The notes beneath the pieces are model-generated. The model was not told the DNA's origin and did no database searches. It worked only from the letters and a program-made list of their open reading frames with translations. The translations under genes were made by a program, and so were the position numbers. Below are positions 2,846-38,185 of a stretch of 64,000 bases of DNA, piece by piece. This stretch comes from a phage: sequence record PQ724394.1; one strand, given 5' to 3'. How positions within the stretch are numbered: position 1 is the stretch's first letter; every line of letters starts with the position of its first letter.

Positions 2846-5800
2846 ATGTCTGTACAAGCGCCTTATGTTACTAGTCTGAGAATTGATAAGCTCTCGGCTA
2901 ACCATGTGAGCATTCTTTGGGATGACGTAGGCGCCAACTTCTATTATTTCGTAGAACTGGCCCAAACGAAGGATGCGGGTGTAGAAATTCCCGACGATAG
3001 ATTATTTTGGAGAAATTTAGGTTACACCCCTAATAACGAATGGTTTGAAGAGGCATTCATTTCTCCTAATTCATTTTATAAAATGCGAGTTGCGGTAGCT
3101 GCTCAGGGGTTTGAGCAGTCTGAGTGGGTTTACACTGAAGAATTTGAAACTTTCTCTACCAACGCATATACATTTGAGCATATGCGTGAATTCACATTGT
3201 CTAATAAATTTATTGAAGAAAAATTCACAAAAAATAATCAGAATTATGTGAACTTTAATACTGACGCCATTATGGCTTCCTTAATGACGGAAGATTTTAA
3301 CTTTACGCCGGCGTATTCGCATTTGTCATCTATATCAAATTATGTTTTAAAAGCCGACCGATTCCATGAAATCCAAGGAAGCATTCAAGCAGTTTGTAAA
3401 GACCCTAAACGTTCTATTTTAATGGAACTTGGTGGAGTTCTGTATCTTTTAGAAAGATTCCAAAGCACTGCTAAAGTTTCTAATGATAAAGGACAAAACT
3501 GGCACTATATTAGATTGTTTAACGATAGAGTGGGTAATCCGGTATCTAGAACGGCCCATTACCAAACAGAAACTACTACATACGTACTAGGTTATGACCA
3601 AATATTTTACGGGCGTAAATCAAGTGATATTAGATGGTCTGCTGATGACGTTCGCTTTAGTTCTCAGGATGTAACATTTGCTAAAATCGGTAGTGATATC
3701 GACCTTCCGTTTGAAATAGAAATATTTGGGTCATATGCAAAACTCCCATTGCCTATTTCCACTATCGCCGAAGCTATGTGTGCTTCCGACGATTTCATTT
3801 ATGTTGCGGGTAGAGACAGAGTTTATAAAGCAAAAACATCTGAGGCCCCTATAGACACTGACCCTAGCTCACCAACTTATGGCGAGAAGATATTTGAAAG
3901 CGGATATTCAACTATCACAGGGAACCCTAAAGCTGTTTGTTATAAATTAGATTCTATCCAAGGGCATACGTTTGCTTTAATTACAGGCGAAGTTAAAGAA
4001 GAAAAAATGGACCCTACAGTAGAGGCTAACGTAATTGATTCTGAATCTAAAGGTGTCTATTGGTTGGATGTAGAAACAGATACTTGGACTCGTGTATTCG
4101 GAAATACTGAAGAAGAACGTCGTCGTATAGAGCATGGATATACTAGCATGTCTACAGATGGCGAAGAGTTATTTTTCAGTTCAAGCAACTTTAGATATGA
4201 AGTGGAGGTTGATTCTGAACTTCCTTGGAAATATCCTGAAATTGTTACTTCGGCTGTTAAATACGTTAAAGACGAACAGTGGATTCATAATAAGCATTAT
4301 TTGATGATGAGCTTTAGGTCTAACTCTAAATCAGATTTTAAAGAATTTAAACCAGGTCGTATGGCTTATTATGCTGAACCATTCTTCAGTTGGTCACGTC
4401 GTGATGGAACCCGTTCTTGGATTACTACAGGTGACCATGCGATGGTTGTTTATAACGATGCTTTGTATCAGAAAGTAATCGACCTTAATAGTGGTTCATC
4501 GCCAGAACGTATTGTTCATGAGATTTGGAATAAAGGATTTTGCAAAGTTACATCCCCTAATATCGAATTTAATGGCTTTAAAAAATATTCCTCTGGTATG
4601 ATGATTCACAAATCTACAGGTGAATTAGTTGGTTATTTTGAATTCGACTATCGTGTGCGTGATGAAGTCCGTGTTATTTGGAAGCCTAAAGAAATTATGT
4701 TTACGGCAGAGCTCCAAAACCAAGAGCATGAAATTCCATGGGCCCCTAAAGAAGAGACCGGCGAACAAGACCCCGATTTGAAACCATTATTAGTCAAAAT
4801 GGTTCCCGATAGTTATTTACTCCAAGATTCCAATTTTGAAAAATTCTGCGAATATTATCTACAGTTTATTAGTGATGGTTCCGGCACTCATTATAATAAT
4901 TTGTTAAACCTTATTCGTAATCAGTATCCTCGTGAAGAAGACTCATGGGAATACCTATGGTCTGAAATTTATAAACGTAATATCTATTTGTCAAAAGAAA
5001 AACGCGACGAAGTTGTTAGATTTTTCCAAGCTCGTCAGTCTGATTTTTGGTCAACTAAAGGTACTGAAGCTTCATATAAATTCCTGTTTAAATTGCTTTA
5101 TAATGAAGATGTCGAAATTGATATCGAGTCCAAGAACTCTATCGAATATGATATCATCGTAGAATCCGACAATATCAGTGAAGATATCGTAGGCCAAACG
5201 ATTTATACTCCTACAGGAAGAAGTAATGTTACTTATATAGAACGAAATTACAAAGACGGTAAATTGCAATGGCGTTTAACCATTCACAATCTTTTAGGTC
5301 GTTTTATAGTCGGTCAGGAAATCAAATCTGAACGTACTTCATTTAAGGGTATGATTGTTCAAGGTGTTCGCGGCAAAGAGCTTTTGAGTAACAATATAGA
5401 TTATATCAACCGTAACCGTTCTTACTATGTGATGACTATTAAGTCTAATCTCCCGACCTCTCGTTATCGCAACGACGTTTTGAGATTTGTTCACCCGGTA
5501 GGTTTCGGCTTTATAGGTATAACTTTGCTTTCTATGTTTGTTAACGTTGGTTTAACACTAAAACATACAGAAACCATTATTAATATCCTTAAGAACTATA
5601 AATGGGACTCAGGTTTGCCATCTGAATGGTATGATAGAGTTGCTGTAATAGGTTTTGATGGTAATATAGAACGAGACCCTCGTACAGGTGCTCCGATGTA
5701 CAACGTTGGACCTAAAGCGGGTGAACCATTTGATATTCCTGCTGATTATGATGCAGAAAATGATTTCTCTGTATTCCAAGGTCAATTACCACACGAACGT

Positions 5801-25914: not shown

Positions 25915-27474
25915 ATGAAAAAGAATGCATTAGTTCAAAAATGGTCCGCTCTGCTGGAAAACGAAGCTCTTCCTGAAATCGTTGGTGCTTCTAAACAAGC
26001 TATCATCGCTAAAATTTTCGAAAACCAGGAACAAGACATCCTGACTGCTCCGGAATACCGTGACGAAAAAATCTCTGAAGCATTTGGTTCTTTCCTGACC
26101 GAAGCTGAAATCGGTGGTGACCATGGTTATGATGCTACCAATATTGCAGCGGGCCAGACCTCTGGTGCTGTAACTCAGATTGGGCCGGCAGTAATGGGTA
26201 TGGTTCGTCGTGCTATTCCTCATCTGATTGCTTTTGATATTTGTGGTGTTCAGCCTCTGAATAACCCTACCGGCCAGGTATTTGCACTGCGTGCAGTATA
26301 TGGTAAAGACCCTATCGCTGCAGGCGCTAAAGAAGCTTTCCATCCGATGTATGCTCCGAATGCTATGTTCTCTGGTCAGGGCGCTGCTCAGACTTTTGAA
26401 GCACTGGCTGCAGGTAAAGTTCTGGAAGTTGGTAAAATTTATTCTCACTTCTTCGAATCTACCGGTTCTGCACACTTCCAGGCTGTTGAAGCCGTAACCG
26501 TTGATGCTGCTGCTACCGATGCTGCTAAACTGGATGTTGCCGTAACTGCTCTGTTGGAAGCTGGCCAGCTGGCTGAATTGGCTGAAGGTATGGCTACTTC
26601 TATCGCTGAACTTCAGGAAGGCTTTAACGGTTCTCAGGACAACCCGTGGAACGAAATGGGCTTCCGTATCGATAAACAAGTTATCGAAGCTAAATCCCGT
26701 CAGCTGAAAGCAAGCTATTCCATCGAACTGGCACAGGACCTTCGTGCAGTACACGGTATGGATGCAGATGCTGAACTGTCCGGTATCCTTGCTACCGAAA
26801 TTATGCTCGAAATCAACCGTGAAGTTATCGATTGGATTAACTACTCTGCACAGGTTGGTAAATCTGGTATGACCAACACCGTTGGCGCTAAAGCTGGTGT
26901 GTTTGACTTCCAGGACCCGATTGATATCCGTGGTGCTCGTTGGGCCGGTGAGAGCTTTAAAGCCCTTCTGTTCCAGATTGATAAAGAAGCAGCCGAAATC
27001 GCTCGTCAGACCGGTCGTGGTGCTGGTAACTTCATCATCGCTTCCCGTAACGTAGTTAACGTACTGGCTGCAGTTGATACTTCTGTAAGTTATGCAGCTC
27101 AAGGTCTGGGTCAGGGTTTCAACGTTGACACAACCAAAGCAGTATTTGCCGGTGTTCTTGGTGGTAAATATCGTGTTTACATCGACCAGTATGCTCGTTC
27201 CGATTACTTCACCATCGGTTATAAAGGTTCCAACGAAATGGACGCAGGTATCTACTATGCTCCGTACGTTGCACTGACTCCGCTGCGTGGTTCCGATCCG
27301 AAGAACTTCCAACCGGTAATGGGCTTCAAAACTCGTTACGGTATCGGTATTAACCCGTTCGCTGACCCAGCTGCTCAGGCACCTACCAAACGTATTCAGA
27401 ATGGTATGCCGGACATCGTTAACAGCCTTGGTCTGAATGGTTACTTTAGACGTGTATATGTGAAAGGTATCTAA
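25915..27474 (+). CDS. 23: major capsid protein gp23
   Basis: 519 aa (T4 gp23 521 aa); strongly biased codon usage and Ala/Gly-rich sequence typical of a highly expressed capsid protein; synteny. Confidence 0.95.
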   Translation: MKKNALVQKWSALLENEALPEIVGASKQAIIAKIFENQEQDILTAPEYRDEKISEAFGSFLTEAEIGGDHGYDATNIAAGQTSGAVTQIGPAVMGMVRRAIPHLIAFDICGVQPLNNPTGQVFALRAVYGKDPIAAGAKEAFHPMYAPNAMFSGQGAAQTFEALAAGKVLEVGKIYSHFFESTGSAHFQAVEAVTVDAAATDAAKLDVAVTALLEAGQLAELAEGMATSIAELQEGFNGSQDNPWNEMGFRIDKQVIEAKSRQLKASYSIELAQDLRAVHGMDADAELSGILATEIMLEINREVIDWINYSAQVGKSGMTNTVGAKAGVFDFQDPIDIRGARWAGESFKALLFQIDKEAAEIARQTGRGAGNFIIASRNVVNVLAAVDTSVSYAAQGLGQGFNVDTTKAVFAGVLGGKYRVYIDQYARSDYFTIGYKGSNEMDAGIYYAPYVALTPLRGSDPKNFQPVMGFKTRYGIGINPFADPAAQAPTKRIQNGMPDIVNSLGLNGYFRRVYVKGI

Positions 27475-27891: not shown

Positions 27892-29175
27892 ATGGCAAAG
27901 ATTAACGAATTACTGCGCGAGTCAACAACTACTACCAGCAACTCATTGGGTCGCCCTAATCTTGTTGCTTTGACCCGTGCTACCACTAAACTAATTTATC
28001 GCGATATCATCGCTGAACAACGTACTAGTCAGCCTATTGCTGCATTGTATGGTGTCAAATATCTTACCCCTGATAATGAATTTAGTTTCCAAACTGGTGC
28101 TGTTTATGGTGGTGAAGTTGGTTCTAAAGACCGTGAAACTATCCCAGAACTCACAGATAAAGCCCAGGCGATTGCCAAGGGTGACTACTTTAAGTATCAG
28201 AATGTGGTTTATAAGGCTCTTCAAGCAAGCCCACTCGCATCCACTAGCGCTACAGAATTGGCTGATGCTCTTCAAGAAGGTTTGGTGTCATTAACGTGTC
28301 GTTTGGTTCCTGATGCGGCGCATACCACTAAATTCGAAGCGAGTGATGTAGAAATCTCTGATGCTGTATTCCAGGTTAATAAATGGAATGCTCCTGTTAA
28401 GACCCGTAAATTGAAGACTGCTTTGACCGTAGAATTAGCACAGGATATGGAATCAAATGGCTTTGACGCCCCTGCGTTCTTAGAAGACCTCCTGGCTACG
28501 GTAATGGCAGATGAAATTAATAAAGACGTTCTACAATCTCTAATAACCGTATCTAAACGCTATAAAGTTACGGGCGTATCTGATAATGGTATTATTGATT
28601 TGACTTATGATAGTGCTCCGGAATCTGCACGTAAACTTTATGAAATTGTGTGTGAGATGAATTCTGAAATCCAGAAAACTACTTCTTATTCTGGTACGTT
28701 TGTTGTGGCTTCAAGTCGTGTGGCTGCAATGCTTGCAGGTTCTGGCTGGTTAAAACATAGACCTGAAGATAATAATTGGCTCCCGGAAACTGCCTATGGT
28801 TATTTGTTGAATGGATTACCTCTGTTCTGTGACGTTAACAGCCCATTGGATTATGTTATCGTAGGTGTTAAAGAGAATTATGGCGGAAATGAAGTCGTAG
28901 GCTCAATTTTCTATGCCCCGTATACAGAAGGCTTGGATTTAGACGACCCAGAACACGTCGGTGCTTATAAGGTTATTGTCGACCCGGATTCATTACAGCC
29001 TTCTATTTCTCTGATGGTTCGTTATGCACTGTCCGCTAACCCGTACACCGTAGCTAAAGACGATAAAGAAGCTCGTGTTATCGATGCAACCAATATGGAT
29101 TTAATGGCTGGTCAGAGTAATATGTCCTATCTGCTCGGTGTTAAACTTCCAGCAATTATTTACGAGGCTGATTAA
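27892..29175 (+). CDS. 24: capsid vertex protein gp24 (copy 1, T4-orthologous)
   Basis: 427 aa, same as T4 gp24; N-terminus MAKINELLRESTTT as in T4 gp24. Confidence 0.85.
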   Translation: MAKINELLRESTTTTSNSLGRPNLVALTRATTKLIYRDIIAEQRTSQPIAALYGVKYLTPDNEFSFQTGAVYGGEVGSKDRETIPELTDKAQAIAKGDYFKYQNVVYKALQASPLASTSATELADALQEGLVSLTCRLVPDAAHTTKFEASDVEISDAVFQVNKWNAPVKTRKLKTALTVELAQDMESNGFDAPAFLEDLLATVMADEINKDVLQSLITVSKRYKVTGVSDNGIIDLTYDSAPESARKLYEIVCEMNSEIQKTTSYSGTFVVASSRVAAMLAGSGWLKHRPEDNNWLPETAYGYLLNGLPLFCDVNSPLDYVIVGVKENYGGNEVVGSIFYAPYTEGLDLDDPEHVGAYKVIVDPDSLQPSISLMVRYALSANPYTVAKDDKEARVIDATNMDLMAGQSNMSYLLGVKLPAIIYEAD

Positions 29176-30455
29176 TGTCTAAGATTATAGACCTAATTAA
29201 AGAATCCACATTGACGGCTGCCAACTCGGTTGGCCGTCCTGCTCTTCTTTCATACACCCAAGCAACTAATAAACGAATCTTTAAAGCCCTAGTTGCTGAA
29301 CAAAAAACAAGCCAACCTGTTGCCGCTCTGTACGGGGTTCGTGTACTTAATCCTGACGACAAAATGACTTATCTTGGTGGCGCTACATTTGCAGGCCAGA
29401 TTGGTATGTCGGAACGTGAAAATATTCCTGAATTTACCGATTCGTCTACAGCTTATGCAGCCGGCGATATGTTCCAGTTTGAAAGTGTAGTGTTTAAAGT
29501 TCTAGAAGCATCTCCTTTCGCCGGAACCACAGAAACCGACCTAGGTGAAGTTATTTCTGAAGCAGTGGCAGCCGGACATATTCGTATGGTATCAGATGCT
29601 GCTATTACTTCTAAATTCGAACAAGGTCATCCCGAAATTGCTGAAGCAGGCTTCCGTATTGACAAATGGCAATCTGAAGTTAAATCACGTAAACTGAAAA
29701 CTTCATTGACAGTCGAATTAGCCCAAGACCTAGAATCAAACGGGTTTAATGCTCCTAATTTCATTGAAAATCTGCTAGGCATTCAAATGGCAGAAGAAAT
29801 TAATAAGGACGTATTACAGTCATTAATTACGGTGAGTTCTCGTTTTAAAGTCCAGGGTGTTTCTGAAAAGGGTGTATTAGACCTTACCAACCCACGTTAC
29901 GATAATGCCCAGGACCGTGCTCGTACATTATATTATTACATGTGTGAGATGAACTCTGCCGTCCAACGTCAAACTTCTTTCGCTGGGACTTATGCAGTAG
30001 CTAGTTCTCGTTGTGCTGCTATTCTCGCCGCTTCCGGTTGGGTTGAGAAAAAGGAAGACCAAGACGAACTGGCTTATGGTGTATTAAAGAATGGTCTGCC
30101 TCTTTATGCCGATATGAATAGTCCGTGTGATTATGTTATTGTTGGTGTAAATGCTCAGATGGGTGAAGGACAGACGGTCGCATCTTTATATTATGCGCCT
30201 TATACGGAAGGTTTGGATGTGGTTGATGAAGAAGGTGATACTTCAGTAGGTGAATTTAAGGTTATTGTTGACCCGGAAAGCTTACAACCTACAGTAGCAT
30301 TGCTTGCTCGTTATGCATTGACTGCAAACCCTTATACCGTCGCTAAGGACGATAAAGAAGCCCGCATTATTGATGGTTCTGATATGGACAAAATGGCTAA
30401 CCAAAGCCAGTTGAGTTCTTATCTTGGTGTTAAACTTCCACCTTTAGAAAAATAA
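29175..30455 (+). CDS. capsid vertex protein gp24 paralogue (copy 2, divergent)
   Basis: 426 aa, collinear with copy 1 at roughly 55-60 percent identity by eye; TAATG overlap with copy 1 stop. Confidence 0.8.
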   Translation: MSKIIDLIKESTLTAANSVGRPALLSYTQATNKRIFKALVAEQKTSQPVAALYGVRVLNPDDKMTYLGGATFAGQIGMSERENIPEFTDSSTAYAAGDMFQFESVVFKVLEASPFAGTTETDLGEVISEAVAAGHIRMVSDAAITSKFEQGHPEIAEAGFRIDKWQSEVKSRKLKTSLTVELAQDLESNGFNAPNFIENLLGIQMAEEINKDVLQSLITVSSRFKVQGVSEKGVLDLTNPRYDNAQDRARTLYYYMCEMNSAVQRQTSFAGTYAVASSRCAAILAASGWVEKKEDQDELAYGVLKNGLPLYADMNSPCDYVIVGVNAQMGEGQTVASLYYAPYTEGLDVVDEEGDTSVGEFKVIVDPESLQPTVALLARYALTANPYTVAKDDKEARIIDGSDMDKMANQSQLSSYLGVKLPPLEK

Positions 30456-31603: not shown

Positions 31604-31816
31604 TTACTTTAGACCAAAAACGCGCTTTGCGCTGACTTTTTTGTTGTTTAATCTTTTACGATATACGACTTTCTCTCTTGCTTTAAACTTGGCCTTAGCA
31701 TTCTCAACTTCGGCCCAAGCTTTAGCCATATCTCTGGCAGTTCCGCCAATCTTTTTAGCAATATCAATAAAATTCATACCAGATTCATGTAAAAAATGTA
31801 CTTTAATCTTATCCAT
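31604..31816 (-). CDS. small basic protein with putative helix-turn-helix (70 aa)
   Basis: Minus-strand ORF; segment NFIDIAKKIGGTARDMAKAW resembles an HTH; basic C-terminus; position equivalent to the T4 24.2/24.3 region. Confidence 0.5.
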   Translation of the reverse strand: MDKIKVHFLHESGMNFIDIAKKIGGTARDMAKAWAEVENAKAKFKAREKVVYRKRLNNKKVSAKRVFGLK

Positions 31817-31844
31817 AACAATTCTCTTGTGATTTGACTATTCA

Positions 31845-31874
31845 ATAGTAACATGAGAATTTTAACTTGTAAAC
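31845..31874 (-). promoter_or_regulatory. sigma70-like early promoter candidate (GTTTAC-N18-TACTAT)
   Basis: Minus strand: GTTTAC (31874-31869), 18 nt, TACTAT (31850-31845), about 29 nt upstream of the ATG at 31816. Confidence 0.45.
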
Positions 31875-31884
31875 AGGAGATTTT

Positions 31885-33390
31885 ATGTCAGACAATCCAT
31901 TATACGGGCATGACGGTAGAGGTCACTTTAGAGGCGTATCATTAGTAGAAGTTCCGCAGGATAAATCATTGGAATTTGCAGACATACTCACTAGTGAAAG
32001 CACCTTAGACCCTACTATGTTGGATTCTTCTCAAAGTTATGGACTTGAATTTATAAAACAAGCTTCTAGGGAAGGCGCGTTGGCCCATTTAGGTATAACT
32101 AATGAGATGCTAACACCTGGTACTGAAGGTCCACAAGGCCCTAAAGGAGACCCAGGGCCGCAAGGTATTCAAGGTAACCCGGGTCCTAAAGGAGAAAAGG
32201 GCGAACCAGGACCAGCAGGTCCAGAAGGTCCTAAAGGAGACCCGGGTTCACCAGGAAAAGAAGGCCCTCAGGGTTTACAAGGGGCCCAAGGAGAAGTAGG
32301 ACCGCAAGGACCACAAGGTCCTATAGGCCCAGCAGGTTTGGTGTGGAAGGGAGCCTGGGATGAATCTACCCAATACTCTAAAGACGATGCAGTTGGATAC
32401 CAGGGAGCTTCTTATTTTTGCATCAGTTCTAATACAGGAACAATACCTCCTAGCGAAGGAGTTTGGGCGCTATTGGCTAATATCGGTGCACCAGGTCCTC
32501 AAGGACCAACCGGCCCAACCGGCCCTCAAGGTCCACAAGGCGCGCCAGGCCAAGATGGTAATGGGTTTATCTGGGCCGGAAACTGGGCCCTTGGTTCGTC
32601 TTATTATATAAACGATTTGGTCCAGTGCGAAGGGTCTTCTTGGATTTGTATCCAGGATAATATAGCAAATAATGATAGTTATCCCGGGAGTGGAGACCTG
32701 TGGGCCGATTATTGGAATTTATTTGTAAAAGAAGGGCGTCCAGGAAATCCCGGAGAAGATGGTGCACCTGGAGAGCAAGGCGCCCAAGGACCGCAAGGCG
32801 ACCCGGGTCCTAAAGGTGAAAAGGGCGAACCTGGGCCACAAGGTATTCAAGGTCCTATAGGGCCCGCAGGTGCTCCTGGTAAAGATGCAGTATTTGATGT
32901 TGATTCTTTAACCCAGTCTCAATTAAAATCTTTATATGATAAACTTTTCCCATTCTATCCACCTAGATATTGGAAAGGCTCTTTAAGATTTGATAAGCCT
33001 CTGAACACTTCAGAGTGGAAGGAAATACGTTTATGGGACCTTAATATGGTTCTTCATGTTCGTATGTATTCGTCTTTAGGCATCCATATAAGGGCTACTA
33101 ATGCGGGTCTTACCAACAGACTTGATATTAAAAGATTTACCAACTATGAAAACGGGATAGAATGCGCCAACTGGAGTAATGTTCTGTGGTCCTCAACTCC
33201 TGAATTATTCGACGATTTGGCTTATTCTAGTGCAAGACAATTTAACCGTTACGAAATATTTGACCGTGATACTAGAAAATACTACACTGTATCTGTGTTT
33301 ATTGTAGGCGGCCCTCTTAATACGACTACAGATATCCCTGTTGAAGTTTTATTTTCTGTCGAAGACCATACTAATATGAGCCCATTTTAA
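31885..33390 (+). CDS. collagen-like repeat protein with two tail-fibre-type W/Y/C-rich modules and a globular C-terminal domain
   Basis: 501 aa; three Gly-X-Y runs (about 24, 9 and 17 triplets) separated by two ~45-aa modules ([30 protein letters not shown] and [30 protein letters not shown]); GGAG ribosome-binding site. Confidence 0.75.
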
Positions 33391-33399
33391 GGAGGTCGA

Positions 33400-34266
33400 A
33401 TGATTACACTTAAAATAAATGGTCCTAGATATGAATTAGTTGGAAGAACTGTAACCTTTTATACCGGGTTTGTATTACCGCCCGGTTCTACTCTAGACGA
33501 TGTAGAAATTAATTGGTATAAAAACGATGTCCATATTCCACAACTTCCTACCGAGGACCCTTTTGAATTAAATTTGTGGGAAGTAGGATTCCCTGCTGCC
33601 GGAACATTTTATGCGACTATAACAAATAAGAAAAGTGGAGAAATAACTAAGAGTAATGAAATAGAACTTGAAATAGGTACCCTTCCAAGAAGGGTTATTT
33701 TAGATATAAATTCAAGACGATTAATATACGCTAATATAGGAGAAACTGTTGCACTTAGGCCATCATGTAGAGTAGAGCCTTCTTATGCGGAAAGGGTTTG
33801 TAGATGGTACAGAGACGGAGTCGAATTATCTAAAGATGAAGATATCGATATATTAATAGACAACTCTAGTAAATTCGGGGAGTATACATTAAAATCTATA
33901 GGAACTTGTGAAGGAGCATATATCCCTGCTTCTGAAGAACTTTTAGTTGAAATAAAACCTAGGGATGATGTATTGCAGTGCCCTTTCATATATGATAACG
34001 ACCTTAATGCTTATTTACCATATGGCGGTGGAAGAAATGAATCGTATATGTGGATAGGTTGGTGGGTATGGGACGAAATAAGAGAAGCCGTTAGATTGGG
34101 AGAAGATTGGACTTTGGATATAAACAACAGCCCATACAAGTATAAATGTGAGTTACAAAAAGTAGCCGACCTTTTGTCTAAGTATCCTGAAGTAGAGATA
34201 CAAGAGTCGAGAAATGGCTACATCTTAGAAAGGAAGGACTTAGTTTACGTCCCTCCTGAAAAATAA
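33400..34266 (+). CDS. Hoc-like protein 2: Ig-like N-terminal region plus conserved Hoc-type C-terminal module
   Basis: 288 aa; AAGGAGG ribosome-binding site 10 nt after the collagen-like gene stop; C-terminal ~70 aa (YMWIGWWVWDEI...YPEVEIQESRNGYILER) matches the C-terminus of the 470-aa Hoc at 34540-35952. Confidence 0.65.
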   Translation: MITLKINGPRYELVGRTVTFYTGFVLPPGSTLDDVEINWYKNDVHIPQLPTEDPFELNLWEVGFPAAGTFYATITNKKSGEITKSNEIELEIGTLPRRVILDINSRRLIYANIGETVALRPSCRVEPSYAERVCRWYRDGVELSKDEDIDILIDNSSKFGEYTLKSIGTCEGAYIPASEELLVEIKPRDDVLQCPFIYDNDLNAYLPYGGGRNESYMWIGWWVWDEIREAVRLGEDWTLDINNSPYKYKCELQKVADLLSKYPEVEIQESRNGYILERKDLVYVPPEK

Positions 34267-34270
34267 TAAA

Positions 34271-34289
34271 GGGCCTACGGGCCCTTTTT
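34271..34289 (+). terminator. intrinsic terminator after the Hoc-like 2 gene
   Basis: gggcc-tacg-ggccc followed by ttttt. Confidence 0.75.
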
Positions 34290-34454
34290 GGTTTGTAAAA
34301 TTTTATCTATAGTAGCTATTATCCCGAAAAATGAACTAATGCATGAGAAAAGAGCCAATATAGAAGCAAACAACCCACTAGTTAATGAAATTAACGAAAA
34401 CAAAAACAGCACTATAAAGAAAACCAACAACCCTATATCTTTGTTAAATTTCAT
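34275..34454 (-). CDS. candidate small hydrophobic protein (59 aa), not in the ORF track
   Basis: Minus-strand ATG at 34454 preceded by AGGTGG; translation MKFNKDIGLLVFFIVLFLFSLISLTSGLFASILALFSCISSFFGIIATIDKILQTKKGP; AT-rich region, so chance ORF not excluded. Confidence 0.3.
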   Translation of the reverse strand: MKFNKDIGLLVFFIVLFLFSLISLTSGLFASILALFSCISSFFGIIATIDKILQTKKGP

Positions 34455-34521
34455 ATATCCACCTATTAAAAATTATTCGTCAATAACTTAATCTCCCGAA
34501 ACACTATCATAAACTAAATAA

Positions 34522-34535
34522 GGGCCTTGCGGCCC
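34522..34535. terminator. bidirectional terminator-like hairpin downstream of hoc
   Basis: gggcc-ttgc-ggccc flanked by A/T-rich sequence on both sides, immediately after the hoc stop. Confidence 0.6.
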
Positions 34536-34539
34536 TTTA

Positions 34540-35952
34540 TTAATAAACGTAATCGTAAATAATTCCAGCATCCAAAGCGGTTCTGTGAATAATTCTACCA
34601 TTACGAGATTCCTGTACATCAACCTCAGGATAATCGGCTACCATTTTTTGAAGGGTATAACGATGGAGATAATATTCACTATCAGGTTCGTCAGTTTTCC
34701 AGTCTTTGCCTTCAAGGGTCATTTTCTGAATTTCGTCCATAACCCACCAACCACACCAAATATAAGCTGAATTACGAACTGGTAGCGGATGAACGTAAGG
34801 TAGTTCGCCCTCTGGTTCAGGAGCTACTTTAGCCGTAATTGTTACATTACCTGTTTTTTTGACAGTCACAGGATTATAGTCGGTAGCCGAAACAACAGCA
34901 GAAACTTCAATAACCTGTGAACCTTCAGCGCTTGTGTCAATTACTAATGTATCCGTAGCACCCACAACAGGTGAACCATCTTTCTTCCAAGAATAAGCAA
35001 AAGTAGCACCACTAGGCGCACCGACTACCGTGGCTTTAAAAGAAGCCGGGATTCCTTCAGAGACAGTAATAGAAGCAGGCGTTAAATTAACAGAAACACC
35101 TGTCATAGTCTTTTTAGTAATTGTTACACTTCCTGTTTTGGTAACGGTTAAATCATTATAATCCGTACCTTTTAGGAGTACCGAAACTTCAATAGAGTAA
35201 GAACCTATTGTAGACGTATCAACAGCAAGAGTATTACTGCTTTCGCCCGGAATAATAGAACCATCTTTCTTCCAAGAATAAGTTGCATTTACGCCGGAAG
35301 GAGCACCAACTACATCCGCTTTAAACTGTGCAGATGAGTCTTTCTCTGTACTAATTGAGGCGGGCGTTAAAGTAACAGAAACACCTGATATAGTTTTCTT
35401 AACAAAAGTTACCGCAACACCTTTAGTAGCGGTACCCGGGTCATATTCAGGGGCGGTAACAGTAACTTCACAGTTCAACGTGTAATTTGCTTCTGCTGCT
35501 TCGGTTACAGTAATAGTTTTACCAGTTTGTCCAGAGATTACGCTGGTGTTACGTTTCCAAACATAAGCAATTGTTGCGCCTGCAGGTGCACCCGTCACGT
35601 TAGCAGTAACAACTTGAGATTGGCCAACTTCTTTAGAAACAGAAATAGGGTCTAAGGCCAAAGAAATAGACATGGTCTTATTAGCTACGGTAACTTCAAA
35701 AGTATCTTCAGCTACCTCAGGTTCGCCTTCAGCCGGAGTAGAAGTTGCTACTACTTTTAAAACTTTCTTACCTGCAGGTGAAGCACCTGTATATTTCAAA
35801 ACATTGGTTGCTTCTGGATTAGAAGCACCATCAATAGACCATACATATGTAATGGTTCCTTCTACAGCTGCACCTGTTGCGGTAGCAGTGTAGTTAGCAC
35901 TTTCGCCTATTTTAATAGACGCTGTGCCGGCTATACTTACAGTAAAAGCCAT
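34540..35952 (-). CDS. hoc: Hoc-like outer capsid decoration protein with four Ig-like repeats and C-terminal capsid-binding-type module
   Basis: 470 aa; tandem ~95-aa Thr/Ser/Val-rich repeats; C-terminal module shared with the 288-aa paralogue; position between inh and the accessory cassette as for T4 hoc. Confidence 0.75.
   Translation of the reverse strand: MAFTVSIAGTASIKIGESANYTATATGAAVEGTITYVWSIDGASNPEATNVLKYTGASPAGKKVLKVVATSTPAEGEPEVAEDTFEVTVANKTMSISLALDPISVSKEVGQSQVVTANVTGAPAGATIAYVWKRNTSVISGQTGKTITVTEAAEANYTLNCEVTVTAPEYDPGTATKGVAVTFVKKTISGVSVTLTPASISTEKDSSAQFKADVVGAPSGVNATYSWKKDGSIIPGESSNTLAVDTSTIGSYSIEVSVLLKGTDYNDLTVTKTGSVTITKKTMTGVSVNLTPASITVSEGIPASFKATVVGAPSGATFAYSWKKDGSPVVGATDTLVIDTSAEGSQVIEVSAVVSATDYNPVTVKKTGNVTITAKVAPEPEGELPYVHPLPVRNSAYIWCGWWVMDEIQKMTLEGKDWKTDEPDSEYYLHRYTLQKMVADYPEVDVQESRNGRIIHRTALDAGIIYDYVY
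34815..35685 (-). repeat. tandem Ig-like domain repeats within hoc
   Basis: Repeated protein units (KKTISGVSVTLTPASIS..., KKTMTGVSVNLTPASIT...) with corresponding DNA similarity. Confidence 0.7.
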
Positions 35953-35961
35953 AGTTTACCC

Positions 35962-36633
35962 TTATTTTAAAGTTACAAAAGATGAATTACGTGTTTCACG
36001 TACTAATACTGAGCCATTACGATTGATGTAATAAATCAGACTGAATAATGTTTGGTGGGCAGAAGGGTGTTGGAAATCTTTAGGACGTTCTTTCCAATCA
36101 GGGGTTTCAGAAATCCATTGATAAATCCACCAAGGAACAGTACAGTAACCAGGGTTTTTACCAATAAGCAAAAGATTAGGACTAAAGTTTTCAGGCAAAG
36201 AGAATACAGGTTTTTCCGATTCAATAACCTTGGTTACGGCCTCTTTGAATTTCTCTTCGACAAACGGAACATCTTCTTCAATAATCTCTACCTTAGGAAG
36301 TTCGGCTACCTCAATAACTTCAACTACAGCTTCAGGGGCATCAAATAATAGGGTAGCTTCTTCTTTGGCAGGTTCCGCGCCATCAACAAATTCGTTAGCG
36401 CCTGTAAGTTCGTCGGCGGCATCAATCAAATCAGAAATAGACAAACCTTCGGTTTCTGGAAGTGGTTCATCAGCCAAGGCTTTAAGGCCTTCAGAGATAT
36501 CGATAATCAAATTATCAAACGAACGGGTTTTCTTAAGTTTTAAACCGAATTGTTCGCCGTATTCGATTAACTTAGCTTTAGCTTCTTTTTTATCTTCGAG
36601 TGCACGAAGCTCTTCAATATATTGAGTATCCAT
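35962..36633 (-). CDS. inh: Inh-like protein (putative inhibitor of prohead protease)
   Basis: 223 aa (T4 Inh about 226 aa); immediately upstream of hoc on the same strand as in T4; called by synteny and size only. Confidence 0.5.
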   Translation of the reverse strand: MDTQYIEELRALEDKKEAKAKLIEYGEQFGLKLKKTRSFDNLIIDISEGLKALADEPLPETEGLSISDLIDAADELTGANEFVDGAEPAKEEATLLFDAPEAVVEVIEVAELPKVEIIEEDVPFVEEKFKEAVTKVIESEKPVFSLPENFSPNLLLIGKNPGYCTVPWWIYQWISETPDWKERPKDFQHPSAHQTLFSLIYYINRNGSVLVRETRNSSFVTLK

Positions 36634-36652
36634 AATTAGTCTCTTGTTGGTG

Positions 36653-36660
36653 TATAAATA
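36653..36660 (+). promoter_or_regulatory. T4-type late promoter (TATAAATA) for uvsW
   Basis: Exact TATAAATA about 29 nt upstream of the uvsW ATG. Confidence 0.55.
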
Positions 36661-36666
36661 TAATTA

Positions 36667-36674
36667 TATTTATA
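36667..36674 (-). promoter_or_regulatory. T4-type late promoter (TATAAATA on minus strand) for inh-hoc
   Basis: Plus-strand TATTTATA, i.e. TATAAATA on minus, about 34 nt upstream of the inh ATG; divergent with the uvsW promoter. Confidence 0.5.
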
Positions 36675-36688
36675 ACTGAGAATTAGAC

Positions 36689-38185
36689 ATGCAAATTCAA
36701 GTACATTTTGATAATTTTAGTCATGTTCGTGTTGAGTGTGATGAATCCACCTTCTACGAACTCAGAGACTATTTCAGCTTTGAAGCTGATGGATATAAAT
36801 TTAACCCTAAATACCGTTACGGGCAATGGGATGGGAGAATTCGTCTTCTAGATTATAACCGTAAACTTCCGTATGGTCTAGTCCCACAAATTAAAAAATT
36901 CGCTGACCAGTTTGAATACTCTCTTTGGATAGACCCACGTATTCTTGAACAGGAAGATATTTCACGTGAAGATTTTGACTCATGGGTAGCTTCACAGGAG
37001 ATTTATTCAGGTTCTACCAGGATTGAGCCACATTGGTATCAGAATGAAGCCGTATACAACGGTCTGACAAAACGTCGTGCAATTCTGAATTTACCTACAT
37101 CTGCAGGTAAATCATTGATTCAGGCGCTCCTGAGTCGATATTACGTTGAGAACTATGAAGGTAAAATTCTTATCTTAGTTCCTACTACTGCACTTGTCGA
37201 TCAGATGATTAATGACTTCATTGATTATCGTTTGTTCCCTAAAGCTGCTATGCTTGGTATTCGTTCAGGTACTGCTCGTGATTCCGATGCAATGATTTAT
37301 GTTTCAACTTATCAAACGGCTATTAAACAACCTAAAGAATGGTTTGCTCAGTTTGGTATGTTTATGAACGACGAATGCCATTTGGCGACAGGTAAATCAA
37401 TTTCTACCATCATCGAAGGCCTTACCAATTGTATGTTTAAATTCGGTTTGTCCGGTTCTTTAAAAGACGGTAAAGCCAATTTAATGCAATATATGGGTTT
37501 GTTTGGTGATGTGTTTAAGCCAGTATCCACTTCACAGTTAATGGAAGAAGGACAGGTTACAGACCTTAAAATCAACAGTATCTTCCTTCGTTATCCGGAT
37601 GAATTCACTGTTAAGATGAAAGGTAAAGATTACCAATCAGAAATCAAGGTCATTACTAAGGCTACTCGTCGTAATAAATGGGTTGCTAATTTAGCTGTTA
37701 AACTCGCTAAGAAAGAAGAGAACGTATTCCTGATGTTTAAAAACATCGAACACGGTAAAACTCTTTTTGAAATGGTTAAAGAGCAACATAAAGAAGTTTA
37801 TTACGTATCAGGTGAAGTTAATACCGAAACGCGTAATGCTCTGAAAGTAATGGCGGAAAATGGTAAGGGTATTATTGTTGTGGCAAGTTATGGTGTGTTC
37901 TCTACTGGTATTTCCGTTAAGAACCTTCACCATGTTGTATTTGCTCATCCAGTAAAATCCAAAATCATTGTACTCCAGACAATTGGTCGTGTACTCCGTA
38001 AACATGCTTCTAAATCAACAGCACAAGTTTGGGACATTATAGACGACATGGGCGTTAAGCCTAAATCAGCAAATGCTAAAAAGAAATATGTTCATTTGAA
38101 TTACGCATTAAAACATGCCTTAGAACGTATTCAACGTTATGCTGACGAGAAATTTAATTACGTAATGAAACAGGTGGATTTATGA
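36689..38185 (+). CDS. uvsW: UvsW DNA helicase (recombination/repair)
   Basis: 498 aa; helicase motifs LNLPTSAGKS (Walker A) and DECH; N-terminus VHFDNFSHVRVECDESTFYELRDYFSFEADGYKFNP closely matches T4 UvsW. Confidence 0.9.
   Translation: MQIQVHFDNFSHVRVECDESTFYELRDYFSFEADGYKFNPKYRYGQWDGRIRLLDYNRKLPYGLVPQIKKFADQFEYSLWIDPRILEQEDISREDFDSWVASQEIYSGSTRIEPHWYQNEAVYNGLTKRRAILNLPTSAGKSLIQALLSRYYVENYEGKILILVPTTALVDQMINDFIDYRLFPKAAMLGIRSGTARDSDAMIYVSTYQTAIKQPKEWFAQFGMFMNDECHLATGKSISTIIEGLTNCMFKFGLSGSLKDGKANLMQYMGLFGDVFKPVSTSQLMEEGQVTDLKINSIFLRYPDEFTVKMKGKDYQSEIKVITKATRRNKWVANLAVKLAKKEENVFLMFKNIEHGKTLFEMVKEQHKEVYYVSGEVNTETRNALKVMAENGKGIIVVASYGVFSTGISVKNLHHVVFAHPVKSKIIVLQTIGRVLRKHASKSTAQVWDIIDDMGVKPKSANAKKKYVHLNYALKHALERIQRYADEKFNYVMKQVDL

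What the first reader, a model, noticed from the sequence alone, without database searches (positions are those of the whole stretch)
33400..35952. Two convergent Hoc-like genes sharing a C-terminal capsid-binding-type module
The 470-aa minus-strand protein (four Ig-like repeats) and the 288-aa plus-strand protein have unrelated N-terminal regions but a clearly homologous ~70-aa C-terminus (IWCGWWVMDEI...YPEVDVQESRNGRII versus YMWIGWWVWDEI...YPEVEIQESRNGYIL). In T4 Hoc the C-terminal domain is the capsid-binding domain. Two proteins with the same anchor but different displayed domains suggest two decoration proteins competing for or sharing capsid sites, possibly giving alternative surface adhesins.
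Basis: partly seen in the sequence, partly recalled or inferred. Interest (0 to 1): 0.75.

Follow-up and report, generated by a model that had tools for sequence, protein, structure and literature searches.

The report
Second Hoc capsid protein, fibre-linked
A T4-like coliphage (genus Dhakavirus) carries two head-decoration (Hoc) genes with the same capsid anchor; this is real but already annotated and described elsewhere, and the new points are that the short Hoc always travels with a collagen-like fibre gene and that the neighbouring Inh protein carries the same anchor.

Summary
Both ORFs exist as described. The 288-aa protein ("Hoc2", + strand) and the 470-aa protein (Hoc orthologue, - strand) are convergent and share a C-terminal domain (BLASTP E=3e-19). 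That domain is homologous to the solved T4 Hoc capsid-binding domain (Hoc2 E=1.2e-14; Hoc1 near-identical).

"Unrelated N-termini" is wrong. Hoc2 has two Ig-like domains whose best structural match is RB49 Hoc.

The window is a Dhakavirus about 96% identical to phages dhaeg, dhabil and CLB_P2, where both genes are already annotated as head outer capsid proteins. Two-Hoc phages are described in Fokine et al. 2023. The finding is therefore genuine but not new.

Hoc2 is under purifying selection (omega about 0.1). It keeps most T4 capsid-contact residues, and the gp23 docking patch is identical to T4's.

Two further results:
1. Hoc2-type genes are always immediately preceded by, and often overlap, a fibre-like gene with a conserved N-domain. 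Only 26 of 50,697 phage records have this N-domain. This points to a two-gene module and possibly a Hoc2-anchored head fibre.
2. The C-terminus of Inh is homologous to the Hoc anchor (hhalign 98%, E=1e-13; best PDB fold hit 8t1x).

Virion presence and competition for capsid sites remain untested.

The parts
31885..33390 (+). 501-aa fibre-like protein. It has a conserved ~78-aa N-domain ([13 protein letters not shown]...LGITNEML), collagen Gly-X-Y runs, two CBM5/12-like modules and a C-terminal domain. It is the first gene of the two-gene module with Hoc2.
   Evidence: ORF. Pfam Collagen E=9e-24 and CBM_5_12 E=2e-9. PHROG 5073 'tail fiber protein' E=3e-85. Homologues sit directly upstream of Hoc2-type genes in JS10, ABTNLsp5, CGG4-1, FBB1, Cronus, Aeromonas phage 65 and Phynn.
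33388..33399 (+). 9-nt intercistronic gap with the Shine-Dalgarno sequence AAGGAGG between the fibre gene stop and the Hoc2 ATG, consistent with coupled expression.
   Evidence: Sequence read directly. The orthologous junctions are gaps of 9-11 nt or overlaps of 4-11 nt.
33400..34266 (+). Hoc2, 288 aa: Ig-like domain 1 (residues 1-93), Ig-like domain 2 (97-187) and a Hoc-type capsid-binding C-terminal domain (about 194-282).
   Evidence: Omega is 0.08-0.11 against the dhabil and IME08 orthologues.
34268..34287 (.). GC-rich hairpin (AAAGGGCCTACGGGCCCTTT) followed by a T-run on both strands. It is the terminator after Hoc2.
   Evidence: sequence.
34520..34537 (-). Terminator-like hairpin after the hoc stop codon.
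   Evidence: sequence.
34540..35952 (-). Hoc orthologue (Hoc1), 470 aa: four Ig-like domains plus the capsid-binding domain (residues 373-470, encoded by nt 34543-34836).
   Evidence: phmmer against PDB T4 Hoc 5vf3_Z, E=3e-118, with a near-identical C-terminal domain. PHROG 1149 E=3e-123. Extra Ig domain relative to IME08.
35962..36633 (-). Inh (annotated as prohead protease inhibitor / minor head protein), 223 aa. Its C-terminal ~70 residues (about 150-223, nt 35965-36186) are homologous to the Hoc capsid-binding domain.
   Evidence: PHROG 1051 E=5e-91 and PHROG 1149 E=9e-5. The Hoc-CTD profile hits the Inh-family protein P0284 at E=1.4e-5 in 1.84 billion proteins. hhalign probability 98.1%, E=1.4e-13; 25.7 bits against 9.2 for the best of 2000 shuffles. 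The best PDB fold hit of the Inh model is 8t1x_X, the Hoc CTD, with TM 0.58.
36667..36674 (-). Exact T4-type late promoter TATAAATA upstream of the inh-hoc operon.
25915..27474 (+). gp23 major capsid protein, the presumed docking partner. Residues 328-350 are identical to T4, covering almost all of the 326-344 Hoc-binding region.
   Evidence: Binding region as defined in PMC10385173.

Best explanation
The 288-aa gene encodes a genuine, functional second member of the Hoc family, here called Hoc2. It is a short stalk of two Ig-like domains on the same C-terminal capsid-binding domain that T4 Hoc uses to dock, one copy per capsomer, into the centre of expanded gp23 hexamers. The 470-aa gene is the ordinary Hoc orthologue with one extra Ig domain. 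Both proteins keep the anchor's contact residues, and this phage's gp23 docking patch is identical to T4's. The two proteins are therefore expected (inferred, not shown) to occupy the same about 155 hexamer-centre sites, giving capsids with a mixture of long and short Ig fibres. Hoc2 is not a free-standing gene. It is the second cistron of a conserved, tightly coupled two-gene module whose first gene encodes a collagen-like, CBM5/12-bearing fibre protein with a conserved N-terminal domain. The two are probably made together late in infection and act together on the head surface. The neighbouring late operon inh-hoc adds a third protein, Inh, with the same anchor fold.
For: Shown directly:
- The two ORFs exist and their C-termini are homologous.
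- Hoc2's C-terminal domain matches the solved T4 Hoc domain at E=1.2e-14.
- 13 of the 16 T4 contact or structural residues listed in PMC10385173 are identical in Hoc2.
- The AF2 model shows Ig-Ig-CTD at pLDDT 84, and its best PDB hit is RB49 Hoc.
- The gp23 patch 328-350 is identical to T4's.
- Purifying selection acts on all three Hoc2 domains: omega 0.03-0.14, whole gene 0.08-0.11.
- Full-length orthologues occur in Dhakavirus, Gelderlandvirus, Roskildevirus, Aeromonas phages (Emmerichvirinae and others) and Pantoea phage Phynn.
- GenBank annotators already call both genes Hoc in dhabil, dhaeg, IME08, JS10, CGG4-1 ('Hoc I/II') and Aeromonas phage 65 ('second copy of the hoc gene').
- Two-Hoc phages sharing the anchor are described in PMC10385173 section 3.6.

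Evidence for the module:
- The fibre N-domain occurs in only 26 of 50,697 phage records.
- In every case examined except one 78-aa remnant (phage AP1), a gene with the Hoc anchor follows on the same strand, with a gap of at most 11 nt or an overlap where both genes are intact. The decayed PspYZU05 pair is about 115 nt apart.
- T4 and Dhakavirus IME341 lack both genes.
- Canonical late promoters precede the module in ABTNLsp5 and Phynn.
- An exact late promoter precedes inh-hoc in the window.
Against: - There is no experimental evidence here or in the searchable literature that Hoc2, or the fibre protein, is in virions of any Dhakavirus.
- No exact late promoter lies upstream of the module in this window, so its timing is not established for this phage.
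- The first beta-strand region of Hoc2's anchor differs from T4 (Y293 and H295 not conserved in the alignment), and the beta1-beta2 loop is about 8 residues longer and poorly modelled (pLDDT below 50 at residues 202-213). Affinity or even site preference could therefore differ from Hoc1.
- Gene adjacency can reflect inheritance as a mobile cassette rather than joint function.
Confidence: 0.6

Rival explanations
1. Adaptor model. Hoc2 is mainly the capsid anchor for the collagen-like fibre. Its conserved Ig domain 1 binds the fibre's conserved N-domain, so the pair forms a two-component head fibre with carbohydrate-binding (CBM5/12-like) modules. Hoc1 independently supplies the classical Ig fibre.
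For: - The gene pair is strictly adjacent and often overlapping across at least 13 lineages and two subfamilies.
- The N-domain is found nowhere else in 50,697 phage records.
- The N-domain is the best-conserved part of the fibre protein, as expected for a virion-attachment end.
- Identity of the N-domain and of Hoc2 Ig1 rise and fall together across lineages. For Aeromonas phage 65 the values are 51% (N-domain) and 44% (Ig1), against 27% for Ig2 and 39% for the anchor.
- Both genes decay together in PspYZU05 and AP1.
- IME08 lost the adjacent fibre gene but keeps another N-domain fibre gene elsewhere.
- SPP1 gp12 is a precedent for a collagen-like trimer at hexamer centres (PMC7602432).
Against: - No interaction was tested and no multimer prediction was available.
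- The co-variation rests on six lineages and on genes that share ancestry anyway.
- A trimeric collagen fibre on a monomeric Hoc anchor is a symmetry mismatch.
- The second IME08 fibre gene is frameshifted in the deposited sequence, yet IME08 Hoc2 is intact and constrained (omega 0.11).
- Phynn's fibre homologue has no collagen repeats.
Confidence: 0.35
2. Hoc1 and Hoc2 are two independent alternative adhesins that merely compete for the same capsid sites, and the upstream fibre gene is an unrelated passenger, for example a tail or whisker fibre.
For: - The two proteins share the same anchor and there is a single gp23 docking patch.
- Fokine et al. propose that the anchor is reused to display different ligands.
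- Databases label the fibre protein a tail fibre.
Against: A passenger gene would not stay adjacent and translationally coupled to Hoc2 across subfamilies while occurring nowhere else. The 'tail fiber' labels rest on collagen-repeat similarity only.
Confidence: 0.3
3. Hoc2 uses its diverged anchor to bind somewhere other than ordinary gp23 hexamer centres, for example particular capsomers or capsomers involving the second gp24 paralogue. In that case it does not compete with Hoc1.
For: - The beta1 strand and the longer beta1-beta2 loop differ from Hoc1 and T4 Hoc.
- Dhakaviruses carry two gp24 genes.
- In T4 the beta1-beta2 loop contacts one particular gp23 subunit.
Against: - IME341 has both gp24 paralogues but no Hoc2.
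- PspYZU05 has one gp24 gene in the fetched region together with a short Hoc.
- The central ESRNG loop that contacts all six gp23 subunits is intact.
Confidence: 0.1
4. Hoc2 is a decaying duplicate with no function.
For: It is absent from some Dhakaviruses (IME341) and from T4.
Against: - The reading frame is intact and omega is about 0.1 at dS 0.3-0.65.
- 68 columns are invariant across 9 orthologues down to 47% identity.
- The gene is conserved across genera.
Confidence: 0.02

Closest known systems
T4 Hoc (highly immunogenic outer capsid protein; PDB 5vf3, 8t1x; RB49 Hoc Ig domains 3shs)
   Same: The architecture is the same: a string of Ig-like domains plus a C-terminal capsid-binding domain. 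Hoc1 is the direct orthologue at the syntenic hoc-inh-uvsW position. Hoc2 shares the anchor (E=1.2e-14) and the Ig fold.
   Different: Hoc2 has two Ig domains rather than three. It lies on the opposite strand outside the inh-hoc operon, has a diverged beta1 strand, a longer beta1-beta2 loop and two family-invariant cysteines (C194, C250). It is coupled to a fibre gene. Hoc1 has four Ig domains.
Phages with two Hoc-like proteins described by Fokine et al. 2023 (Serratia phage Muldoon 1174 + 314 aa; Enterobacter phage PG7 233 + 511 aa)
   Same: One genome encodes two proteins sharing the Hoc capsid-binding domain, one long and one short. Muldoon's short protein also has two Ig domains plus the anchor.
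   Different: That paper does not mention Dhakavirus, the linkage to a collagen-like fibre gene, or Inh ('Inh' occurs 0 times). Whether the Muldoon and PG7 short Hocs belong to the fibre-linked subfamily was not checked.
GenBank-annotated second hoc genes (IME08 and JS10 'hoc' x2; Aeromonas phage 65 'hoc-2, second copy of the hoc gene'; Salmonella phage CGG4-1 'Hoc I/Hoc II')
   Same: These are orthologues of Hoc2 at 35-88% identity, with the same gene order where checked.
   Different: They are annotations only. I found no functional or structural study of them.
SPP1 gp12, a collagen-like decoration protein (trimer at hexamer centres)
   Same: It is a collagen-like protein on a phage head, proposed to act in adhesion. 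It is a functional analogy for the upstream fibre protein.
   Different: gp12 binds the capsid directly. Here the fibre protein has no recognisable capsid anchor of its own and is paired with a Hoc-type anchor protein. No sequence relationship was tested.
T4 Inh (annotated as inhibitor of gp21 prohead protease / minor head protein)
   Same: The window's 223-aa protein is its orthologue (PHROG 1051, E=5e-91) at the same position upstream of hoc.
   Different: Its C-terminal domain turns out to be homologous to the Hoc anchor, which the papers I could search do not mention.

Membership tests
Hoc family (T4-type head outer capsid decoration protein): Hoc2, 288 aa | C-terminal domain homologous to the T4 Hoc capsid-binding domain (residues 281-376) | tested here: met
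   phmmer against PDB chain 5vf3_Z gives E=1.2e-14, residues 209-279 against 297-365. Hoc-CTD profile: 125.9 bits. PHROG 1149 E=1e-42.
Hoc family: Hoc2 | Conserved capsid-contact and structural residues: the W309-W310 pair, R300, D313 and the E355-S-R-N-G359 loop, plus Y293 and H295 | tested here: inconclusive
   WW, R300, D313, Q354, ESRNG, Y304, W306 and Y360 are identical. Y293 and H295 are not conserved in the MAFFT alignment (possibly F196 and Y198 under an alternative register). H299 is replaced within a longer loop (residue list from PMC10385173).
Hoc family: Hoc2 | N-terminal string of Ig-like domains | tested here: met
   The AF2 model shows two beta-sandwiches with pLDDT about 90. 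Foldseek top PDB hit is 3shs, the RB49 Hoc Ig domains, E=1e-11. There is a weak Pfam Ig_2 hit.
Hoc family: Hoc2 | Anchor fold of a four-stranded sheet plus three helices | tested here: inconclusive
   The AF2 secondary structure for residues 198-281 is beta, beta, alpha, alpha, beta, alpha at pLDDT 75-85. The beta1-beta2 loop has pLDDT below 50. No direct superposition on 8t1x was done, because the Ig domains dominated the fold search.
Hoc family: Hoc2 | Binds the centre of expanded gp23 hexamers, one copy per hexamer, and is present in virions | not testable with these tools
   Only indirect evidence: gp23 residues 328-350 are identical to T4. No proteomic data were found.
Hoc family: Hoc1, 470 aa | Orthology to T4 Hoc in sequence, synteny and late operon with inh | tested here: met
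   E=3e-118 against T4 Hoc. Gene order hoc-inh-uvsW is as in T4. A late promoter sits upstream of inh.
Two-Hoc phages (same anchor on two proteins in one genome; Fokine et al. 2023) | Two separate genes in one genome, each with the Hoc capsid-binding domain | tested here: met
   description.
Fibre + short-Hoc two-gene module (proposed here) | A gene with the conserved fibre N-domain immediately upstream of, and co-oriented with, a gene carrying the Hoc anchor | tested here: met
   In the window the gap is 9 nt. The same arrangement occurs in JS10, ABTNLsp5, CGG4-1, FBB1, Cronus, Aeromonas phage 65, Phynn and (decayed) PspYZU05. Positions also match for TH15, Esco_phi_B-01, AS4, GomatiRiver_11 and AhFM11.
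Fibre + short-Hoc two-gene module (proposed here) | Physical interaction between the fibre N-domain and Hoc2 | not testable with these tools
   No multimer prediction or experiment was available. There is only weak co-variation of identities across six lineages.
Hoc-type capsid-binding domain: Inh C-terminus | Sequence and fold homology to the Hoc anchor | tested here: met
   hhalign against a 144-sequence anchor alignment: probability 98.1%, E=1.4e-13. hmmsearch: window Inh 25.7 bits, T4 Inh 22.8 bits, best of 2000 shuffles 9.2 bits. The intermediate protein P0284 was found at E=1.4e-5 in 1.84 billion proteins. Foldseek best PDB hit is 8t1x_X, probability 0.99, TM 0.58, although E=0.11 and the model has pLDDT about 63-75.

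The most novel reading that the evidence does not exclude
The hoc region of T4-like phages encodes a small toolkit of proteins that all plug into the capsid through one anchor domain. The members are classical Hoc, a short Hoc2 that serves as the capsid socket for a separately encoded collagen-like, carbohydrate-binding head fibre (a two-component decoration not described for T4-like phages), and Inh. Inh is annotated as a prohead protease inhibitor and minor head protein, and that role would then depend on docking to gp23 capsomers through the same domain.
Probability: 0.3. Interest if true: 0.65.

Novelty: new member of a known kind. Interest (0 to 1): 0.4.

Why it matters
Hoc is the standard display platform on T4 and is implicated in phage adherence to mucus. 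Knowing that some therapeutic-type coliphages (CLB_P2, the JS10 and IME08 relatives) carry two Hoc species, and probably a linked collagen-like fibre, bears on three things: which surface ligands their heads present, their immunogenicity, and how many sites are free for engineered display. If Hoc2 anchors the fibre, it would be a natural two-part display system on the T4 capsid. The homology between Inh and the Hoc anchor gives a concrete, testable idea of how a poorly understood T4 head protein meets the capsid.

Tried and rejected
1. Link between Hoc2 and the second gp24 paralogue. Rejected: Dhakavirus IME341 has both gp24 genes but neither Hoc2 nor the fibre gene.

2. Word-indexed homologue search with the anchor alone. 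It returned only 16 short fragments. The exhaustive profile search was needed instead.

3. Inh against Hoc by pairwise BLAST (E=0.025 and 0.012) and by shallow profile-profile comparison (E=0.009, probability 4%). These were unconvincing on their own. Only the 144-sequence anchor profile, the intermediate sequence P0284 and the fold search made the case.

4. Late promoter for the fibre-Hoc2 operon in the window. No exact TATAAATA was found. A sigma-70-like TTGACT with a 15-nt spacer is poor.

5. The local Pfam copy has no model for the Hoc anchor or for Inh. The PF26097 and PF26098 labels on Inh homologues in the precomputed table could not be read.

6. Literature searches for virion proteomics of two-Hoc phages, for 'hoc-2' or 'Hoc II', and for Inh found nothing relevant. 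The older T4 reviews and the JS98 paper are not held.

7. Chance as an explanation for the shared C-terminus. Excluded by the E-values.
Full report
**Identity of the window.** The region is a Straboviridae phage of the genus Dhakavirus (subfamily Tevenvirinae). Nucleotides 31800-36700 are 96.5% identical over their full length to Escherichia phages dhaeg and dhabil and 95.6% identical to CLB_P2. Gene order matches T4: gp23, two gp24 paralogues, rnlB (-), 24.3 (-), then hoc (-), inh (-) and uvsW (+). Two extra + strand genes are inserted between 24.3 and hoc.

**Observation.**
- Both ORFs are exactly as reported: 33400-34266 (+), 288 aa, and 34540-35952 (-), 470 aa.
- BLASTP between them gives E=3e-19.
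- The 470-aa protein is the Hoc orthologue. It matches the T4 Hoc sequence of PDB 5vf3/8t1x at E=3e-118, and its C-terminal domain is almost identical.
- Relative to IME08 Hoc (377 aa) it carries one additional, precisely inserted Ig domain at residues 187-279. This domain is 57% identical to the next domain, indicating a domain duplication.
- The claim of unrelated N-termini does not hold. The pairwise alignment spans 230 residues. PHROG 1149 covers nearly all of the 288-aa protein. The AlphaFold2 model (pLDDT 83.9) shows two Ig-like sandwiches followed by a mixed alpha/beta C-terminal domain. The best PDB match is the Ig string of RB49 Hoc.

**Is the shared module the Hoc capsid anchor?** Yes.
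- Hoc2 residues 209-279 align to T4 Hoc 297-365 at E=1.2e-14.
- Fokine et al. 2023 (PMC10385173) list the residues that contact gp23 or hold the loop: Y293, H295, H299, R300, Y304, W306, W309, W310, D313, Q354, E355-G359 and Y360.
- Hoc1 keeps all but H299 and Y360.
- Hoc2 keeps R300, Y304, W306, W309, W310, D313, Q354, ESRNG and Y360. It differs around Y293 and H295 and has a longer, poorly modelled beta1-beta2 loop.
- The gp23 region that Hoc binds (326-344) is identical to T4 from residue 328 onward, including D336 and R344.
- A profile of the anchor finds only 152 cluster representatives in 1.84 billion proteins. Lengths range from 70 to 1782 aa. The anchor is mostly at the C-terminus but occasionally at the N-terminus.

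**Is Hoc2 functional?**
- Against the dhabil and IME08 orthologues, omega is 0.08 and 0.11 at dS 0.30 and 0.65. All three domains are constrained.
- Nine orthologues down to 47% identity share 68 invariant columns.
- Full-length orthologues at 31-88% identity occur in other Dhakaviruses (IME08, JS10, ABTNLsp5, TH15, Esco_phi_B-01), Gelderlandvirus CGG4-1, Roskildevirus FBB1 and several Aeromonas phages, including phage 65 of the Emmerichvirinae. A more distant one (27% identity) occurs in Pantoea phage Phynn.

**Is it new?** No.
- Both genes are annotated 'head outer capsid protein' in dhabil and dhaeg and 'hoc' twice in IME08 and JS10.
- Aeromonas phage 65 has 'hoc-2, second copy of the hoc gene'. 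CGG4-1 has 'Hoc I' and 'Hoc II', plus a 944-aa protein with the anchor.
- Fokine et al. explicitly describe phages Muldoon and PG7 as encoding two Hoc-like proteins that share the capsid-binding domain. They propose that the domain is reused to display other ligands.
- I found no experimental work showing both proteins on one capsid.

**A point the annotations do not make: Hoc2 is half of a gene pair.**
- Nine nucleotides upstream, with an AAGGAGG ribosome-binding site, ends a 501-aa gene (31885-33390). It encodes a conserved ~78-aa N-domain, collagen repeats, two CBM5/12-like modules and a C-terminal domain.
- Homologues of this protein sit immediately upstream of the Hoc2-type gene, on the same strand, in JS10, ABTNLsp5, CGG4-1, FBB1, Cronus, Aeromonas phage 65 and Phynn. 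The junctions are 2-11-nt gaps or 4-11-nt overlaps. Coordinates agree for TH15, Esco_phi_B-01, AS4, GomatiRiver_11 and AhFM11.
- The N-domain is found in only 26 of 50,697 phage records.
- Every downstream gene tested carries the Hoc anchor at 56-126 bits.
- Decayed copies decay together. PspYZU05 has a 49-aa N-domain remnant plus a 132-aa Hoc. AP1 has a 78-aa remnant and no Hoc2.
- IME08 has a 24-aa remnant of the fibre gene upstream of hoc2. A second N-domain-plus-collagen gene, frameshifted in the deposited sequence, lies after gp24b, the position the module occupies in Roskildeviruses.
- T4 and Dhakavirus IME341 lack both genes.
- Across six lineages, identity of the fibre N-domain tracks identity of Hoc2 Ig domain 1 more closely than it tracks the anchor. 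For Aeromonas phage 65 the values are 51% and 44%, against 27% for Ig2 and 39% for the anchor. This is suggestive only.

**Expression.**
- An exact late promoter TATAAATA precedes inh-hoc at 36667-36674 (-), and another precedes uvsW.
- None precedes the fibre-Hoc2 pair in the window. Exact late promoters do precede the orthologous pair in ABTNLsp5 and Phynn, and in Roskildeviruses the pair follows gp24 directly.
- Hairpin terminators follow both convergent genes.

**Mechanism.**
- Shown: two Hoc-family proteins with a conserved anchor, a conserved docking patch, and a conserved fibre-Hoc2 gene pair.
- Inferred: both Hocs dock at hexamer centres and therefore share the about 155 sites, and the pair is made late.
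- Hypothesised at about 0.35: Hoc2's Ig1 holds the fibre's N-domain, giving a two-component head fibre. SPP1 gp12 is a functional precedent for a collagen-like trimer at hexamer centres.

**Inh.**
- The 223-aa Inh orthologue hit the Hoc PHROG weakly, at E=9e-5.
- The anchor profile found an Inh-family protein, P0284, at E=1.4e-5 library-wide. Its motif GYWVVDEI...DDWK...IRESRNS is intermediate between the Inh and Hoc motifs.
- With a 144-sequence anchor alignment, hhalign gives 98.1% probability and E=1.4e-13. The window's Inh scores 25.7 bits and T4 Inh 22.8 bits, against 9.2 bits for the best of 2000 shuffles.
- WW, DWK, E-(S/T)-R-N and R/K300 are conserved. D313, W306, G359 and Y360 are not.
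- Recent T4 head reviews and the Hoc paper do not mention Inh. Older literature could not be read.

**Verdict.** Both are already recorded in annotations and in the literature. The added value is the fibre-Hoc2 module and the homology between Inh and the Hoc anchor. Both are computationally well supported as observations but untested as mechanisms.

Noticed in passing
window 35962-36633 (-), especially nt 35965-36186: The C-terminal ~70 residues of Inh (annotated as prohead protease inhibitor / minor head protein) are homologous to the Hoc capsid-binding domain. Evidence: hhalign 98.1%, E=1.4e-13; best PDB fold hit 8t1x_X; an intermediate sequence, P0284. The same holds for T4 Inh, so even T4 has two proteins with this anchor. 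The papers I could search do not mention it.
   Followed up: partly
window 34275-34454 (-): An unannotated 59-aa, strongly hydrophobic ORF (MKFNKDIGLLVFFIVLFLFSLISL...) with a good Shine-Dalgarno sequence lies between two near-identical terminator hairpins (34268-34287 and 34520-34537). IME08 has a single hairpin and no such insert. It looks like a small inserted membrane-protein cassette.
   Followed up: no
window 27892-29175 and 29175-30455 (+): There are two tandem gp24 (head vertex protein) paralogues, as in other Dhakaviruses, Gelderlandvirus CGG4-1 and Roskildevirus Cronus. Their presence does not correlate with Hoc2, because IME341 has both gp24 genes and no Hoc2.
   Followed up: partly
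window 35116-35394 (-) (Hoc1 residues 187-279): Hoc1 has one extra Ig domain relative to IME08 Hoc (470 versus 377 aa). It is a precise domain-sized insertion, 57% identical to the following domain, indicating recent domain duplication in the displayed stalk.
   Followed up: yes
L002 (IME08) 4087-4161 and 1248-2656: IME08 retains only a 24-codon remnant of the fibre gene upstream of hoc2. It also has a second fibre gene after gp24b whose N-domain is in a different reading frame from the collagen part. This is either a frameshift or a sequencing error, and the gene is annotated from a non-ATG start.
   Followed up: partly
window 33685-33960 (Hoc2 Ig domain 2) compared with 33961-34263: Between the window and dhabil, synonymous divergence is very uneven along Hoc2: dS is 0.71 in Ig2, 0.31 in Ig1 and 0.02 in the anchor. 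This suggests recombinational mosaicism within the gene.
   Followed up: no
window 33979-33981 and 34147-34149 (Hoc2 C194 and C250): Two cysteines in the Hoc2 anchor are invariant across the nine-member Hoc2 alignment. They are also present in FBB1 and Aeromonas phage 65 but absent from Hoc1 and T4 Hoc. A subfamily-specific disulfide or metal site is possible.
   Followed up: no
proteins P0270, P0274, P0277, P0287, P0289: Several proteins carry the Hoc anchor at the N-terminus, followed by Ig-like or BIG2-like repeats. This reverse arrangement was noted for phage PG7 by Fokine et al. P0276 and P0288 combine an acidic or low-complexity N-terminus with the anchor.
   Followed up: no
Inh homologues P0010-P0129: The precomputed table assigns Pfam PF26098 and PF26097 to Inh homologues, but the local Pfam copy returns nothing for Inh. 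The names of those families, and whether Pfam already links them to Hoc, could not be checked.
   Followed up: no
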